Shown: positions 46,486 through 56,290, numbered from the stretch's first letter. The stretch is DNA of 64,000 nucleotides from Myxococcales bacterium (GCA_047601445.1 JASGJH010000001.1:3328001-3392000), one strand, 5' to 3'. Numbers and translations are program-made. The notes: generated by a model not told the origin, from the sequence alone.

Positions 46486-49400
46486 TCAGTTGCGCAGGAG
46501 CCGCGAAGCGTGGTCGCTCAGGAGCACCACGTTGTCGGGTGTTTCCGCTTCCTCGGCCGGGGCTGGTTTCTTGTTCGGGTCGAGGCGCTCGCGCACGGCC
46601 TGCACGAGCTCGGAGGTCTTGAGCACCGCGGTGTCGACCGCCGGCGAGAGCGCGGTGGCAAAGGCCGAGGTGGTGAGACCGGTGGTCCAGGCGATGGGAC
46701 CGAGCGGCGTGCAGCCGAAGAGCTGGCTGAGGCCCGGCGTCTGGATGATGAGCCCGAGGGCCGCAAAGGATCCTAGGCTCGTCCAAAGCACCGAACGACT
46801 GTGACCGCCCTTGAGCAAGGTCTGCCCGAGCTGGGTGCCGACGAGCCCCACCAGCCCCACGGTGCGCGCGCGTGCTTGCCCGCCGCTCAAGCGCGCCAGG
46901 GTCCAAGCACTGCCAGCGCCGAAGGAGGTGGTGATGGCGCGAGCGATGATCTCGCGATCGAGGGGCGCACCAAGCGATGCGTCCGGGCCTGCGTCCCGCA
47001 GCGTGCTCAAGTCGCGCACGGAAGGCGGACGCAGCGCGATGGCCATCGAGGGCGCGATGTCGGTGAGGAAGTTGACGAGCAGAAGCTGGCGCGGGTTGAG
47101 CGGAGCGTGTCCGAGCAGCGCGCCGATGCTCACGGTGAAGGCGATTTCCCCGAGGTTGCCGCCCACCAGGATGGACACCGCATCGCGCACGGAGTTCCAC
47201 ATGGCGCGGCCTTCGACCACCGCGTCCACCAGCGAGTCGATGCGCGCGTCCGCCAGCACCACGTCGGCGGCCGCTCGCGCTGCTTCGGTGGAGCCCGCGC
47301 CCACCGCGATGCCGGCATCGGCCACACGCATGGCGGGCGCATCGTTGGCGCCGTCGCCGACCATGCCGACCACGTGCCCGGTGCGCTGCAGTGCCCGCAC
47401 CACGCGGACCTTTTGCGCAGGCGTGACGCGCGCGAAGATGGCCGTCTTGCCCACGGCGCGCTCGAGCTGCGCCTCGGTCATGTGGGCGATCTGAGCGCCG
47501 TGCAGCATGCCCAAGTGGTTCACCAAGCCCACCTCGCGACCGATGCTGTGCGCGGTGTTGGGATGGTCGCCGGTGACCATCACCACGCGCACGCCAGCCT
47601 TCGCGAGACCGCTCACGGCGCCCTGTGCACTGGCACGCACGGGGTCACGGAACGCCACCAACCCGCGCACGATGAGTTCGCGCGGATCTTCGATGAGGGC
47701 GCGGGCCGGAGCTTGCTCGAGCTCGGCGTCCCCCACGGCGCGCTCGGCCACCGCAATGACGCGCAGGCCATCCGAGGTGAGCCGCTCGAGTTGTTGCTGG
47801 TAGGCGCCCTTGCCGCGCGAAATGGGCAAAAGGTCCCCTGACAACGCCACCGCGCTCGCGCGCGCCAGCAGCTGCTCTGGGGCCCCCTTGACGTAGATGC
47901 GTGCGCCGTCGGGTCCGCGTCCGAGCACGGCCTCGAAGCCGCGACCGGACTCGAAGGCGTGTTCCGCGAGGCGCACGAAGCCTTGCTCGAAATCACTCGC
48001 GAGCCTGCTGCGTGCCGCACGTACGATTTCGGCGTCCATCGGATCGCCGGACAGGCCTCGATCGTTGGCGACCGCGAGCGCGCCCATGCGCAACACGTCG
48101 AGGCGGGCCCCCGAAAGCTGCGCGATGCCCTCCAGCCGCTCGCCGTCGTGTACGCCGCTGAGCTCGATGCGGCCTTCGGTGAGCGTGCCCGTCTTGTCCA
48201 GGCACAGCACGTCCACGCGGCCCAATGCCTCGATGGCGCGCGGGTTCTTCACCAGCGCGCCGCGCCGCGACAGACGCTCGGCGGCCGCCAGCTGACTCAC
48301 GGTCGCCAGCACCGGCAAGCCCTCGGGTACGGCTGCGACTGCCAACCCCACGCCCGTGCTCACGAGATCATCCACGCGACGCCCACGCAGCAGGCCCGTG
48401 CCCACCAGCGCGGCGCCCGCGGTCATGGCCACGGGTCCAGTCAGACGCATGAGCGCGCGCAGACGCGCCTCGACTCCGCCACGCGCCTCGTCCGGCGTGA
48501 CCAGCGTGCCGCGGCGCATGATGGTGTCGTCGCCCGTGGCCACCACCACCGCGGTAGCGCGACCGGCTGCCACCGTGGTGCCAGCCCAGAGCATGGAGCT
48601 GGTGTCGGCCACGCTCTCTGCGAACGAGGGCGCCGCGCTCTTGAGCACCGGCAATGACTCGCCGGTGAGCGCCGACGCGTCGACCTCCAGCGAGTGCGCC
48701 TCGAGGATGCGGCAGTCCGCGGGCACCAGAATCGCCCTGATGAAAGAGCACCAGATCACCGCGCCGTAGCTCGCTCGCCAGACATACGCGCACGCGACCG
48801 CCGCGCCGCACGTGGACACGGGTCTCGGCTTGCTGCACCAGGCTGCTGATGGCGCGCTCCGTCTTGAAGCGCTGGTAGCCACCGATCAACGCGTTGAGCC
48901 CGCCTACGCCCGCCACGATGCCCGCGTCGGCCTTGGACCCCACCACTGCCGAGATGCCGGCGCCCATCGCCAGAAGCGGCGAGAGGGGGCTCGCGAGCTC
49001 CTTCTGTACGGCGCGGCCGAGCTCCATCCAGGCCGAGAAGTCGCGCACGCGGTCGCGGGTGCGCACCACCTTGGGTTCGGGCAATCCCTCGTCGCTGCTG
49101 CCGAGGCGAGCCAGGACGCCGCGGGCTTCGAGCGCGTGCCAGGGTGTGGGGTCCACCGGCTTGCGGGTGGAGCCGTCGACGTGCGCGGTGCGACGCACGG
49201 CGTTCAGCATGGCCGCCAGGCTCGCCAGGTTCACCACGAGCAACACGCGACGGGCTGCTAGTGGCGTGCGCCCACCAGCCGAGGCCAGTGTGCCGACGGC
49301 GGCCGCTCCCATCGCCAGGCGCACACTCTGCCGCGAGACACCGCGCGCCACATTGCAAGCCTCGATGACGGTGGCCAATACCCCCGGATCGTCGGGGCAC

Positions 49401-52442: not shown

Positions 52443-53465
52443 CTAGCTGGCCCGCGAGAGCGGCTCGTAGAGCTCGTCCGCGACACGCTGCTCCAGGCTC
52501 TGTACGCGCGGCGTAGCCGCGATGGCCTCCACCACTTTGGTGACCACCTCGCGGTCCCGCAGCACGCGCCGATGCCCCAGGCCCTGGGTCGTGAACAAGT
52601 CTGCGCTCGGCCAATGCCGGAACAGCTCGAGCCCGTGCTCGTACGGCACCTCGCGGTCGTTCCGGTCGTGAACCACAAGCGCGGGAAGCTCGAGCCTCGG
52701 CGTCAGCTGGCGCAGGTCGAAGCCCTCGAAGTTCACGCCGTAGCGCTCTCCGAGGCGAGCCTTCACGCCCTCGAGGGCCGCCCGCGAGAGCTGCAAGGTA
52801 CGCCCGAACTCGGCCAAGAACTCGCGTGGATGGAGCGGGCTCGCGATGGTGATCAGCCGCCTGCCGAAGGACCGCCGCGAGCGCGCGTAGACCGCCGCCG
52901 TGCCGCCCAGTGAATGACCGATCACGGCGTGCACCTCGCCGACCCGCTTCACGATGCCCTCGAGCACCTCGGTGAACTCCATCACCGTGACGCGCGCGGC
53001 CTCGGCGTCGCCGTGCCCAGGTTGGTCCCAGGACACCACGCGAAAGCCCTGCGCCACCAGGGACGCCACGAAGGGCGCCACCTGGCTGCCGCGCCCCTCC
53101 CAGCCGTGCGAGAACAGCACCACGGGCCCTTGCCCCCACGAGTACACCGGCACCCGGTGACCTGCGATGTGCCAGAGCTCGCGCCGCGCCGAAGCCAGCA
53201 CCTGCTGCTCTTCCGGCGGACGACGATGCCTGCGCGGACTCATGAACAGCGGCTCGGCCGCCCGTGCGGAGAGCTTGGGCGACACGAAGTCGAGCACCCG
53301 CAAGAGCCGGCGGACCTGCTGCAGCTGTGGCTCGGCCCGCGCATCCGCCTGGCCAGCAACCGGGGCGCCGCGTTCCGGTCCCTCGGGCGCTCCGCGATGC
53401 TCGACTACTGGCTCCGAATACACTCGACCGTTCGTGCTTTTATTGGAATGCAGTGACGAGTCCAT
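52443..53465 (-). CDS. Alpha/beta hydrolase
   Basis: HGWEG, DQPGHG, GHSLGG, HDRND, GLGH. Confidence 0.9.
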
Positions 53466-53494
53466 GACTTCCTCCCGTTCGAAATCACGCGTCC

Positions 53495-54100
53495 TTAGTT
53501 GGAGAGTCGCGGTGCACGGGCGTCAGCCAGCAGGCGCTCGAAGGCGGCCCGCACGCGACGCTCGACGTTGGGGATGCGCAAGAGACGCTTGTGCATCTGA
53601 TAGCTGTCGTAGACACCGTAGGCCTCGAAGGCGAACTGCTCCGGATCCAGGTCAGCTCGGAAGTGACCCTCCTCCTGGGCAATACGCACGGCCTGAGCCA
53701 GCGCTCCCAGCCAATCGCGCTGGGAGGCCACCAGGCGCTCGCGCGCGGGGCCGGGTCGATCGTCGAGCTCAACCGCCGTGGCGAAGAAAATGCAGCCTCC
53801 GGGCATGAACTCTTGTTCGCCCCAGGCAAGCCAGCGTTTCAACAGCGCACGCACACGTGGCTCCCCGCGCGGCTCACGCAGCGCCGGCGAGATCACGAGC
53901 TCTACAAAGCGTCGCACGGCCTCGTCGAGCACGGCGACCTGCAGGTTGTCCTTGGAGCTGAAGTGCGCGAACAGTCCGCTCTTCGACATCCCGACCTTAT
54001 CGGCCAGCACCCCGATGCTGAGGCCGGAAAGGCCCTGCTCGCTCGCAATCCGCAGCGCCTGCTCTACAATGCCTCGACGGGTATCTTCGCCCTTGCCCAT
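53495..54100 (-). CDS. TetR/AcrR family transcriptional regulator
   Basis: GLSGLSIGVLADKVGMSKSGLFAHF HTH; PGGCIF C-domain. Confidence 0.93.
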   Translation of the reverse strand: MGKGEDTRRGIVEQALRIASEQGLSGLSIGVLADKVGMSKSGLFAHFSSKDNLQVAVLDEAVRRFVELVISPALREPRGEPRVRALLKRWLAWGEQEFMPGGCIFFATAVELDDRPGPARERLVASQRDWLGALAQAVRIAQEEGHFRADLDPEQFAFEAYGVYDSYQMHKRLLRIPNVERRVRAAFERLLADARAPRLSN

Positions 54101-54112
54101 ACCCGACACAAA

Positions 54113-54143: not shown

Positions 54144-54882
54144 TCAACGCGAGCCCAGCAGTACCCCACGCTGGAGCGCCAAGGTGACCCCGGTTGCGAG
54201 CTCCTCGAGCAATGCTTCGTCGAAAACTTTCCCCAATGAATACGCAGACATGCGTACTAGAATCCGCCAGCGACGCCGCGTTGTCGCGACGGGCACATCG
54301 CAGGACTTCGGTGAACAGCGGGTCGGCCGCGTACCAGCGGATGTCGTCGATCTGGGGCGGTCGATAGACCAGCAGGCTGCAGGGCTCCGTGCGGCACGAC
54401 GTGTCCTCGAGTTCGTGCACCCGATGCGACAACGCGAGCTGCTCGAGCGCCGCGTTGAACACGGGGATACCCGCGAAGTCGAACTCCTTGATGCCCGGGG
54501 GCGGCTCCGCCTTGCGGTAGGCCACTCGCCACTTGGCTTCCTCGAAGCGCAGGAGGTCGGCGGCGTAGACCGGACTGTCCGAGAGCAGCTCGGTATCGTC
54601 CACGGCGAACGTTCCGAAGGCGGCGATCACCTCGCGAATGAGCGGACTACGCGGCGGTTGCGCGGCCAAGAAGCGCATGAAGCTGCGCTCGCAGGCCTCG
54701 GTTCCCAGCAGCTCGAAGCTCTTGCGGAAGGCTTGCTTGGCCATCCCGAGGAAGCGGGTCCGAATCATCTGGCGATACATCACGAAGCGCCCGCGATCCT
54801 CGAAGCCCTCGAAGTCTCGCTCGTCGGCCTCGGGCGCGAAGCTGAGCTTCACGAGGGCGCGCTGGTACTCGGCCAGGTTCAC
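54144..54882 (-). CDS. MNIO partner/peptide-binding chaperone (DUF2063, HvfC/BufC-like; +1 frameshift at 54259-54264)
   Basis: LAEYQRAL..RFVMYRQMI..F..FL...PPRSP..DLLRFEEA; start overlaps MNIO stop; corrected end LATGVTLALQRGVLLGSR*. Confidence 0.75.
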
Positions 54883-55751
54883 ACGGCCACCTTGGGAAGC
54901 ACGGACGCCTCTGCCGCTTGGAGCGCGCGCTGATAGATCGCGTCGAGGCGCGTGACCTCGGCGAGCAACTCCGAGAGCGCGGGGAAGTTGTCGTCGCGCT
55001 CGAGCAGGACGGGCAGGCGTCGTCCCAGCTTGCCCATGGTGTACTCGAACAACGCGAAGACCTCCTCACACACGGGCTCCGCGTGGGTATCGATGCGAAG
55101 GCCGTCCGGGCGCACCAGGTGCCCTGCCACGTGCAGCTGCACCACGCGCTCCAGCGGGAGTCCATCGATGAAAGCGCGCGGATCGAAACCGTGGTTTTGG
55201 CTGTTCACGAACACGTTGTTCACGTCGAGCAAGAGCTTGGCGTCCGAGCGCTCGAGGACCTCCACCAGGTGCTCGAGCTCGCTCATGCTGCCGCCGGGTG
55301 CATGGGCGTAATAGCTGATGTGTTCGAGGGCGATGGGCACGCCGAGTGCGTCCTGAGCTTGGTGCACGCGGTCGACCACCACATCCACGCATTCGCGGTT
55401 GAAGGGCAACGGCAAGAGGTCGTGAGCGAACACGCCGTCGACGCCCGCGAAGCACAGATGATCGGAGTGCCAGGGAACCTCGAGCTCCGCGAGTAGTCCG
55501 CGCAGCTCACGCAGATCAGCCTGCTCGAAAGGAGCCACGGAACCGAAGGCCATGGTGAGCCCGTGGGTCAGGAGCGGGAAGCGTTCGCGCGCCGTGCCCA
55601 ACATGGTCTCGTAACGTCCCCCGCGCTGGAGGTAGTTCTCGGGATGGATCTCGAGCCAGCGTACGGGCGTGTGCGGGGCCTCGAAGAGCTCCCTAGCCAG
55701 CGCATGTCGCAAGCCGAGCCCGATACCCTCTGCCTTGGTCCCGTGCGCCAC
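54879..55751 (-). CDS. Multinuclear non-heme iron oxidase (MNIO, DUF692)
   Basis: GLGLR, LEIHPENY, HGL, HSDHLCF, HDLLPLP, LLLDVNNVFVN..NHG, LHVAGH, IDTH, LLERD. Confidence 0.95.
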   Translation of the reverse strand: MAHGTKAEGIGLGLRHALARELFEAPHTPVRWLEIHPENYLQRGGRYETMLGTARERFPLLTHGLTMAFGSVAPFEQADLRELRGLLAELEVPWHSDHLCFAGVDGVFAHDLLPLPFNRECVDVVVDRVHQAQDALGVPIALEHISYYAHAPGGSMSELEHLVEVLERSDAKLLLDVNNVFVNSQNHGFDPRAFIDGLPLERVVQLHVAGHLVRPDGLRIDTHAEPVCEEVFALFEYTMGKLGRRLPVLLERDDNFPALSELLAEVTRLDAIYQRALQAAEASVLPKVAV

Positions 55752-55768
55752 TCGTCTGCCCCTTTCTA

Positions 55769-55826
55769 CTGCTCGCTTCGCCCGAGGGCGCGCTTCCTCG
55801 GCTCACGCCCGGGGGCGCGCTTCGAC
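55769..55826 (+). repeat. REP-like element family A, two copies
   Basis: CTGCTCGCTTCGCCCGAGGGCGCGCTTC and GCTCACGCCCGGGGGCGCGCTTCG. Confidence 0.7.
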
Positions 55827-55946
55827 CAGTCCGAAAACTAACGCCAAAATTGCAAAAGCGCCGCGACGAACCCGCCACGGCGCCCTCTGCCTACACGAAC
55901 CTAGGTCGTGCTCGTCCGAGCAGCTCCCTGAGGTTCGCTCACCCGA

Positions 55947-56201
55947 TCACTTGGACGCGCCGCAGCTGCCACCGCCGCAGGACGACTCGCCGCCACCCTC
56001 GGCCGGAGCTGCGCCCTCGGCCGGAGCCGTGCCCTCGGCCGGAGCGGCCGCACCACCACAGGATTGCTCGGCACCACTCGCGGCCTCGGCGGCCTCACCA
56101 GCGGCGGGCTCGGCAGCCTTCTTGGCACAGCCACCGACCAGGCTCAGTCCCAGGGTCGCCGCTGCCATCGTCAGAACCTGTGCACGCAACTTGGAATCCA
56201 T
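55947..56201 (-). CDS. Putative MNIO RiPP precursor with lipoprotein signal and three SCG motifs
   Basis: GGAGAGG SD; lipobox-like VGG-C25; QSCGG, ESSCGGGSCGASK; directly upstream of MNIO. Confidence 0.85.
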   Translation of the reverse strand: MDSKLRAQVLTMAAATLGLSLVGGCAKKAAEPAAGEAAEAASGAEQSCGGAAAPAEGTAPAEGAAPAEGGGESSCGGGSCGASK

Positions 56202-56263
56202 GATGTTTTCCTCTCCTGTGGACGGCTCGTTCGGACTGAACGGAGCCGTCTTGGTGTCGTGAC

Positions 56264-56290
56264 TACGCGTCGAAGGCGGGCCGAGTTACA
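56264..56290 (-). promoter_or_regulatory. ECF16/SigF-like promoter
   Basis: Minus strand TGTAACT-N16-CGTA, resembling the GTAACC-N16-CGAA SigF consensus, about 60 nt upstream of the precursor. Confidence 0.65.

What the first reader, a model, noticed from the sequence alone, without database searches (positions are those of the whole stretch)
54144..56290. MNIO (DUF692) RiPP locus whose precursor looks like a lipoprotein with SCG motifs
Seen: co-oriented precursor (84 aa), MNIO and DUF2063-like partner, the last two with overlapping stop/start. The precursor has a basic N-terminus, a hydrophobic core and VGG-C25, then an Ala/Glu/Pro spacer with Cys only in SCG contexts (C48, C75, C80; ...EQSCGG...ESSCGGGSCGASK). 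Established: MNIO plus partner convert Cys to 5-thiooxazole or oxazolone-thioamide groups in bufferins (Caulobacter), oxazolin (HvfA, EGKCG repeats) and methanobactin, which bind copper; the bufferin and oxazolin precursors I know use ordinary Sec signals. Inference: this product is modified at SCG and lipid-anchored through C25, i.e. a membrane-tethered metallophore in a myxobacterium.
Basis: partly seen in the sequence, partly recalled or inferred. Interest (0 to 1): 0.85.

Follow-up and report, generated by a model that had tools for sequence, protein, structure and literature searches.

The report
Lipid-anchored copper-binding peptide of myxobacteria
Three adjacent genes encode a small peptide with a lipoprotein-type signal and an iron-enzyme pair that likely turns its cysteines into copper-binding rings before the peptide is predicted to be lipid-anchored in the cell envelope; this kind of product is already described, and this is a myxobacterial version of it.

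Summary
Observation confirmed: 84-aa precursor (C25, C48, C75, C80), MNIO (PF05114, 309 bits) and DUF2063 partner with a 4-nt stop/start overlap. The partner is frameshifted near 54,255-54,290, probably an assembly error. The precursor belongs to a myxobacterial family (87 clusters at 50% identity) with an invariant lipobox-type Cys and a C-terminal ExSCG(E/G/A)GSC motif, a Lys-to-Ser variant of the oxazolin/fontiphorin EGKCG repeat. The novelty claimed is largely gone. Lipidated MNIO products (DAG-RiPPs), including a triacylated EGKCG oxazolin (NedA), were shown in 2026 (PMC13056109). EGSCG repeats and Polyangium lipobox precursors are in a published data set (PMC13097082). The expected ring is 5-thiooxazole; oxazolin has been reassigned. 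Two additions: the signal peptide is unusually conserved and is modelled onto the partner's C-terminal domain (0.72, best control 0.00), so it probably doubles as the leader; and an ECF-type promoter (GTAAC-N17-CGTA) precedes the operon. This scan found the same kind of locus earlier in other genomes. Verdict: new member of a known kind, interest 0.33.

The parts
56264..56289 (-). ECF-type promoter-like motif GTAAC-N17-CGTA, 88 nt upstream of the precursor start
   Evidence: The motif G[TA]AAC-N16/17-CGT[AC] lies within 250 nt upstream of 33 of 59 precursors, against 12 of 3527 background windows. It fits the EcfF consensus of PMC3420878 and resembles the sigmaF motif of PMC3511200. Function untested.
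56222..56250 (-). 5' UTR hairpin just upstream of the ribosome-binding site
   Evidence: z -2.33, 6 of 200 shuffles fold as well; weak
55947..56201 (-). Precursor peptide, 84 aa: signal/leader 1-24, lipobox-type Cys25, Ala/Glu/Gly/Pro spacer, core Cys48, Cys75 and Cys80 in SCG
56130..56201 (-). Signal peptide (residues 1-24), predicted to be SPII-type and also the leader bound by the partner
   Evidence: conservation against the BamD signal control; model with a relative's intact partner
56127..56129 (-). Cys25 codon, predicted diacylglyceryl attachment site
   Evidence: Invariant in 33 of 33; sequence context differs from that of the core Cys
55947..55988 (-). C-terminal paired motif ESSCGGGSCG (Cys75, Cys80), predicted MNIO target
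   Evidence: C75, G76, G78 and C80 conserved in at least 90% of 33 sequences
55852..55889 (-). Stable hairpin between precursor and MNIO, possibly a leaky terminator or mRNA stabiliser
   Evidence: z -3.49, 1 of 200 shuffles. Not reported by the terminator scan
54879..55751 (-). MNIO (DUF692) enzyme, 290 aa, of the HvfB/BufB group; His/Asp/Glu motifs present (H63, H98, E143, D176, N179, H207, D221, H223, E251, D253)
54144..54882 (-). DUF2063 (PME type 1) partner, frameshifted near 54,255-54,290; its conserved C-terminal segment lies in another frame and ends at 54144

Best explanation
This is a three-gene operon (precursor, MNIO, DUF2063 partner) that likely makes a captophorin-type lipopeptide: the enzyme pair is predicted to oxidise the three Ser-Cys-Gly cysteines to 5-thiooxazoles, and the peptide would then be lipid-anchored through Cys25 and likely buffer excess copper at the cell envelope. 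Inferred order of steps: (1) an ECF sigma factor induces the operon under metal or oxidative stress; (2) the partner's C-terminal RRE-type domain binds the signal peptide as a leader while the MNIO modifies C48, C75 and C80 (-4 Da each); (3) Sec export, Lgt diacylglyceryl transfer to C25, LspA cleavage and Lnt N-acylation follow; (4) with no Asp at +2, the product would probably go to the outer membrane, where the C75/C80 pair sits at the end of a flexible acidic tether of about 50 residues and binds Cu. Shown here: the genes, the family conservation and the host's lipidation genes. Inferred: all the chemistry, the lipidation, the localisation and the regulation.
For: MNIO best matches are HvfB (280 bits) and BufB (274), against ChrH 48 and MbnB 35; the top PDB match is 3BWW at E 2e-53. 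All characterised MNIO-PME1 clusters install 5-thiooxazole and their products generally bind Cu (PMC13097082). FonBC accepts EAACGEGACG and Thr at the pre-Cys position and needs a small residue after Cys. In 46 lipobox-type precursors, 146 of 206 core Cys follow Ser and 178 of 206 precede Gly or Ser. Nine of 33 family members hit the HvfA model NF050137, best E 5e-7, and the family profile retrieves an EGKCG protein, P0083. C25 is invariant in 33 of 33; 0 of 46 lipobox Cys follow Ser, and 19 of 46 precede Lys, unlike the core Cys. The genome has lgt (2 matches), lspA (1) and lnt (2 over cut-off). Triacylated, MNIO-modified NedA is the precedent. Signal conservation is 20-25 of 25 residues among five congeneric genomes, against 6-13 of 16-24 for BamD signals in four of them, with 4-11 synonymous codon changes. 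The complex model scored 0.72, best of 3 controls 0.00; the mark was reached by 51 of 78 solved complexes and 2 of 108 mismatched pairs; runs agree in at least 61% of contacts; partner pLDDT at least 57. HvfA lacking its signal is poorly modified.
Against: No experiment on any member. SignalP was not available; the lipobox test is my own rule (recalled pattern), and VGG-C has Gly at -2, which is non-canonical. The MNIO is below both equivalog cut-offs (280 vs 360; 274 vs 310). It has Asp254 where 3BWW has Phe; I take this to be the FonB Phe250 position, so selectivity may differ. The window precursor hits no precursor HMM. In this assembly the partner lacks, in frame, the segment that carries the modelled leader contacts. 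The strict promoter motif is missing in five close relatives (L002, L003, L004, L006, L012) and was found in only 2 of 12 newly fetched loci, two of which had mis-picked starts. About 18 of the hits come from one tight clade. The complex pass may come from memory of solved leader-RRE complexes, and its controls were not signal peptides.
Confidence: 0.72

Rival explanations
1. The operon is as described, but in this strain it is dead or impaired because the partner frameshift is real; an unmodified Cys-lipopeptide would be made.
For: The frame break removes the conserved C-terminal segment that holds the modelled leader contacts at partner residues 207-238. HvfC is required for the active cofactor state of HvfB.
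Against: 3 of 19 other genes tested in this genome also show in-register frame breaks, two of them within 5 kb. The sequence past the break is still 54-66% identical to the five closest partners. All 15 relatives' partners translated were intact. The assembly is one 9.5-Mb contig, which suggests long-read indel errors (inference).
Confidence: 0.1
2. The MNIO installs a different chemistry on the Ser-Cys-Gly-x-Gly-Ser-Cys pair (for example a ChrH/DybH-type macrocycle or an oxazolone-thioamide), and the product has a role other than Cu buffering.
For: The MNIO is under both equivalog cut-offs and differs at the residue after the catalytic Asp. The substrate is acidic (mature pI 4.3) and its core motifs lack Lys. 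Function is unknown even for DybA.
Against: ChrH 48 bits and MbnB 35 bits against HvfB 280; no CPxCGxG motif; no ChrH C-terminal bundle (290 aa); a PME type 1 partner, which goes with 5-thiooxazole in all characterised cases.
Confidence: 0.12
3. C25 is not lipidated. The precursor is an ordinary Sec/SPI substrate or stays uncleaved, and C25 is conserved as part of the leader or as a further MNIO target.
For: In 17 of 46 relatives the residue after this Cys is Gly, which resembles a substrate motif. Sister lineages with non-lipobox signals exist, 13 of 59. SignalP was not run.
Against: The Cys sits at the end of the hydrophobic core after Gly or Ala in 46 of 59 precursors, and 83 of 87 profile hits pass the same rule. 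19 of 46 have Lys after it, and FonBC rejects a charged residue there. NedA keeps its lipobox Cys for lipidation.
Confidence: 0.06

Closest known systems
Lipo-NedABC of Neisseria dentiae / DAG-RiPPs (PMC13056109)
   Same: MNIO plus partner; precursor with an SPII-type signal and lipobox Cys; C-terminal x-x-x-Cys-Gly repeats; proposed membrane Cu sequestration.
   Different: Here the repeats are ExSCG/GGSCG instead of EGKCG, the peptide is acidic, the host group is Myxococcota, and nothing is shown experimentally. That paper expects lipidated RiPPs to be mostly leader-independent, whereas here the signal looks like the leader.
Lys-Cys captophorins: oxazolin (HvfABC), fontiphorin (FonABC), gonophorin (PMC13097082)
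   Same: Gene order A-B-C; PME type 1 partner; paired Cys five residues apart at the C-terminus; MNIO closest to the HvfB model.
   Different: Ser replaces Lys before Cys; lipoprotein-type signal; no DoxX gene next to the operon; MNIO below the HvfB cut-off; only three core Cys.
Bufferins Buf1/Buf2 of Caulobacter vibrioides (PMC11626156, PMC12452194)
   Same: Related MNIO (BufB 274 bits); ECF-type promoter similar to the sigmaF motif that drives the buf operons (PMC3511200); about 16% of Buf2 have lipoprotein signals.
   Different: The precursor has no DUF2282 or 6/12-Cys pattern and is low-complexity; no sigma or NrsF gene at the locus.
DybA/chryseobasin DAG-RiPPs (PMC13056109)
   Same: Lipobox Cys plus a C-terminal two-Cys motif modified by an MNIO.
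   Different: No CPxCGxG motif, no ChrH-type enzyme (48 bits), and a separate DUF2063 partner is present.

Membership tests
Captophorin (MNIO-PME1 cluster) | MNIO enzyme of the HvfB/BufB group | tested here: met
   PF05114 309 bits; HvfB 280 and BufB 274 against ApyH 99, ChrH 48, MbnB 35
Captophorin (MNIO-PME1 cluster) | Adjacent DUF2063-containing partner | tested here: met
   PF09836 30.4 bits over cut-off 27.2; HvfC model E 2e-13
Captophorin (MNIO-PME1 cluster) | Intact partner with its C-terminal RRE-type domain | tested here: inconclusive
   Encoded but frameshifted in this assembly; intact in 15 of 15 relatives translated
Captophorin (MNIO-PME1 cluster) | Cys-containing precursor with an export signal directly upstream of the MNIO | tested here: met
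Captophorin (MNIO-PME1 cluster) | 5-thiooxazole installed; product binds Cu | not testable with these tools
   Needs MS, UV, NMR and metal titration
DAG-RiPP | SPII signal with lipobox Cys | tested here: met
   Own rule (recalled pattern, not SignalP): basic N-region, 10 uncharged residues, G/A/S before Cys; C25 invariant in 33 of 33
DAG-RiPP | Host Lgt, LspA and Lnt | tested here: met
DAG-RiPP | Demonstrated di- or triacylation of the modified peptide | not testable with these tools
   Bench experiment
Oxazolin/HvfA family (strict) | EGKCG repeats / HvfA HMM | tested here: not met
   No hit for the window precursor; 9 of 33 relatives hit NF050137 at E<=1, best 5e-7
Oxazolin/HvfA family (strict) | HvfB equivalog cut-off | tested here: not met
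   280 against 360 bits
Bufferin Buf1/Buf2 | DUF2282 domain or 6/12 conserved Cys | tested here: not met
   No Pfam hit; three core Cys
Chryseobasin/DybA | CPxCGxG motif and ChrH-type enzyme | tested here: not met
   Motif absent; ChrH 48 against cut-off 600
Methanobactin | MbnB/MbnC pair | tested here: not met
   MbnB 34.9 against cut-off 325; no MbnC hit
CxxxxC lipoprotein family (PMC12452194; Cluster X of PMC13056109) | Conserved CxxxxC motif and family profile; often a Lactamase_B_2 neighbour | tested here: inconclusive
   C75-x4-C80 fits the spacing; no Lactamase_B_2 among 36 neighbour representatives scanned; the family's sequences could not be seen

The most novel reading that the evidence does not exclude
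In this myxobacterial family one 24-residue peptide is both the lipoprotein export signal and the RiPP leader. The partner's RRE grips it, which holds the precursor back from Sec until the distal Ser-Cys-Gly cysteines are converted and keeps the adjacent lipobox Cys25 out of the MNIO active site. This would explain how a Cys-oxidising enzyme spares the one Cys needed for lipidation, and the product would be an ECF-induced, outer-membrane-tethered bis-thiooxazole copper trap.
Probability: 0.4. Interest if true: 0.52.

Novelty: new member of a known kind. Interest (0 to 1): 0.33.

Why it matters
It extends captophorins and DAG-RiPPs to a broad, mostly uncultured myxobacterial lineage that the available precursor HMMs miss: the window precursor has no NCBIfam hit, and three sequenced myxobacteria checked score zero for the published precursor profiles despite carrying MNIO and DUF2063 genes. 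It is a minimal substrate (three target Cys, one anchor Cys) for an open question in the class: how an MNIO chooses among cysteines and how cytoplasmic modification beats export. It is not a new kind of system.

Tried and rejected
No sequencing run was listed for the region, so the frameshift could not be checked against reads; this is no evidence either way. Regulon idea rejected: genome-wide counts of GTAAC-Nx-CGTA show no excess at spacing 16-17 (7 and 9, range 4-13 for spacings 10-24); 67 genome sites gave no coherent gene set; the site before msrP is absent before the one full-length relative's msrP. Sigma assignment failed: 102 sigma70-family hits, none with the strict motif upstream, and the ECF/NrsF-like pair at L083 shows no such site. 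No second precursor of this family in the genome. No conserved accessory gene: neighbours are clade-specific housekeeping genes. The MNIO tree is a quick, unfinished search; 4 of 82 rows were dropped for internal stops; the lipobox label needs 3 changes against 11.9 shuffled, but one origin is not shown. Profile comparison with P0083 gave only probability 29% over 16 columns. No sigma-70 promoter and no minus-strand terminator from the simple scan. The Pal control was not usable as an orthologue set, so BamD is the only signal-peptide control. A literature search for DUF692 + ECF sigma factor + promoter + Myxococcus returned 0 papers.

Full report
Observation. The minus strand carries an 84-aa ORF (55947-56201), an MNIO (54879-55751) and a partner starting at 54882 with a 4-nt overlap. 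The MNIO scores 309 bits on PF05114 and the partner 30.4 on PF09836. NCBIfam ranks HvfB (280) and BufB (274) far above ApyH, ChrH and MbnB, all below their cut-offs, and gives the partner a weak HvfC hit; the precursor hits nothing at E<=0.1. The best solved relative is 3BWW, and the His/Asp/Glu motifs expected of the metal site (recalled for the family) are present.

Frameshift. Partners from 15 related loci are intact ORFs of 220-263 aa. The closest ones align to the window in one frame up to about 54,260 and in another from about 54,287 to the stop at 54,144. Three of 19 other genes tested in this single-contig genome have similar breaks, so an assembly error is the likelier cause. No reads were available to check.

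Family. A scan of genome contigs kept the best 80 of 208 related MNIO loci, mostly labelled Polyangiales, Sandaracinaceae or Myxococcales. Of 78 MNIO rows analysed (82 loci less 4 dropped for stops), 59 had an assignable upstream precursor: 46 pass a lipobox rule of my own and 13 do not; 19 were unassigned (cut contigs, wrong ORF picks or none found). In a 33-sequence alignment only M1 and C25 are invariant, and C75, G76, G78 and C80 are nearly so. The profile finds 87 clusters at 50% identity among 1.84 billion proteins; 83 pass the lipobox rule and 59 carry a paired Cys motif. It matches 30 of 41 sampled genomes of the order, and 19 of the 20 loci returned have an MNIO directly downstream. 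The core Cys follow Ser in 146 of 206 cases and precede Gly or Ser in 178; the lipobox Cys follows Gly (24) or Ala (22), never Ser, and precedes Lys in 19 of 46; none has Asp at +2 (the rule itself required G/A/S at -1). The genome encodes Lgt, LspA and Lnt.

Relation to oxazolins. The family consensus ExSCGEGSCG is the fontiphorin core EAKCGEGKCG with Lys changed to Ser. Nine of 33 members hit the HvfA model weakly, and L071 has an EGKCG end. FonBC processed EAACGEGACG and the Thr variant and needs a small residue after Cys (PMC13097082). That paper's precursor spreadsheet contains EGSCG 922 times, lipobox-type EGKCG/ASCG precursors, and Polyangium precursors with LAAC and Lys/Ser-Cys-Ser motifs; SCGGG occurs 0 times. 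So the motif type and the myxobacterial lipoprotein architecture are in published data, but I did not find this acidic branch there.

What is known. PMC13056109 (parts 1-5 of 7 read; supplements closed) shows triacylation of DybA and of the EGKCG oxazolin NedA, names the class DAG-RiPPs, and lists an uncharacterised lipoprotein cluster with a CxxxxC motif. PMC12452194 (parts 1-5 of 8; two spreadsheets searched) reports lipoprotein signals in about 16% of Buf2 precursors. PMC13097082 (parts 1-4 of 6; spreadsheets searched) and 10.64898/2026.06.05.730506 (part 1 of 3) reassign oxazolin to 5-thiooxazole. PMC11626156, PMC3511200, PMC3420878, PMC12538549 and 10.64898/2026.07.17.739211 were seen as passages only. 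Seven searches listed no paper characterising a myxobacterial SCG lipopeptide. The library lacks most subscription journals, and the unseen supplements could list this family.

Signal peptide as leader. Among G000, G001, G007, G008 and G009 the signal peptides are 20-25 of 25 identical while the spacers are about 48-75% identical. BamD signals in four of these genomes share only 6-13 of 16-24 residues although mature BamD is 78-94% identical. The signal codons carry 4-11 synonymous changes, so the constraint is on the protein (one control gene only). A complex of the intact L003 partner with residues 1-40 of its precursor scored 0.72, best of 3 controls 0.00. The mark was reached by 51 of 78 solved complexes and 2 of 108 mismatched pairs; runs agree in at least 61% of contacts; partner pLDDT is at least 57. 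Contacts run from signal residues 1-21 to partner residues 135-138 and 207-238. This supports binding but does not show it; leader-RRE complexes of other MNIOs are solved, so the pass may reflect likeness. It agrees with reports that HvfA without its signal is poorly modified and that the MmrA leader is conserved and modelled on MmrC. Against it, the BufA1 signal was dispensable on overexpression, and single Ala changes before the FonA core were tolerated.

Promoter. G[TA]AAC-N16/17-CGT[AC] lies within 250 nt upstream of 33 of 59 precursors against 12 of 3527 background windows. Within 400 nt it occurs in 35 of 45 lipobox-type and 1 of 14 other loci, with spacing 16 in 34 cases. I defined the pattern after seeing 130-nt printouts, but the cluster of hits at -191 to -197 lay outside them. 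It fits the EcfF consensus and resembles the sigmaF site that drives the Caulobacter bufferin operons. Limits: relatives are not independent; five close relatives lack the strict motif (two have a GTAAC-N17-CGA variant); only 2 of 12 new loci had it; and no sigma factor or regulon could be assigned.

Earlier scan notes reached the same reading on other genomes; they were consulted after my reading was formed and are not counted as support.

Verdict. A real, conserved captophorin-type operon whose precursor is very probably a lipoprotein. It works like lipo-NedABC. It is not a strict member of the HvfA family, because the EGKCG and HMM tests fail. Chemistry, lipidation and copper binding are inferred. 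New member of a known kind; interest 0.33.

Noticed in passing
G000:C1:6108027-6108809 (-), locus L081: Second MNIO locus in the genome, over the BufB cut-off (316.9 against 310). A divergently oriented ORF (L081 2236-2859 +) has a lipobox-like LTAC and a Cys-rich end resembling Buf2.
   Followed up: partly
G000:C1:5697716-5699360, locus L104: msrPQ operon with GTAAC-N17-CGTA ending 3 nt before the ATG; msrP (yedY) is a sigmaF target in Caulobacter. The site is not present before the msrP of G003.
   Followed up: yes
G000:C1:9275342-9276540, locus L083: ECF sigma factor followed by an NrsF-like anti-sigma (PF06532 32.9 bits); a candidate regulator, but no motif was seen upstream of it.
   Followed up: partly
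window 55780, 56476, 56553, 59238, 59273: 17-bp GC-rich intergenic repeat with 34 exact copies genome-wide, REP-like; two related copies lie between precursor and MNIO.
   Followed up: partly
window ~52317 and ~58370; possibly also 48368-48882: Frame breaks in the DapD-like and TldD-like genes and an apparently split P-type ATPase, consistent with indel errors in the assembly.
   Followed up: partly
L059, L063, L065, L069: Sister lineage with non-lipobox signals, Lys-rich KSCG/HSCK repeats and two tandem precursor genes before the MNIO.
   Followed up: no
L054, L055, L067, L068, L076: A well-supported MNIO clade with no precursor found directly upstream (L068 holds only 201 nt upstream); the substrate may be encoded elsewhere.
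   Followed up: partly
L094: Three tandem paralogous precursors with Glu-Thr-rich spacers, two of which have lost the core Cys while keeping the signal and lipobox Cys.
   Followed up: no
window 52443-54109 (-): TetR regulator and alpha/beta hydrolase directly downstream on the same strand; the TetR gene is present in only two close relatives, so probably not part of the system.
   Followed up: partly
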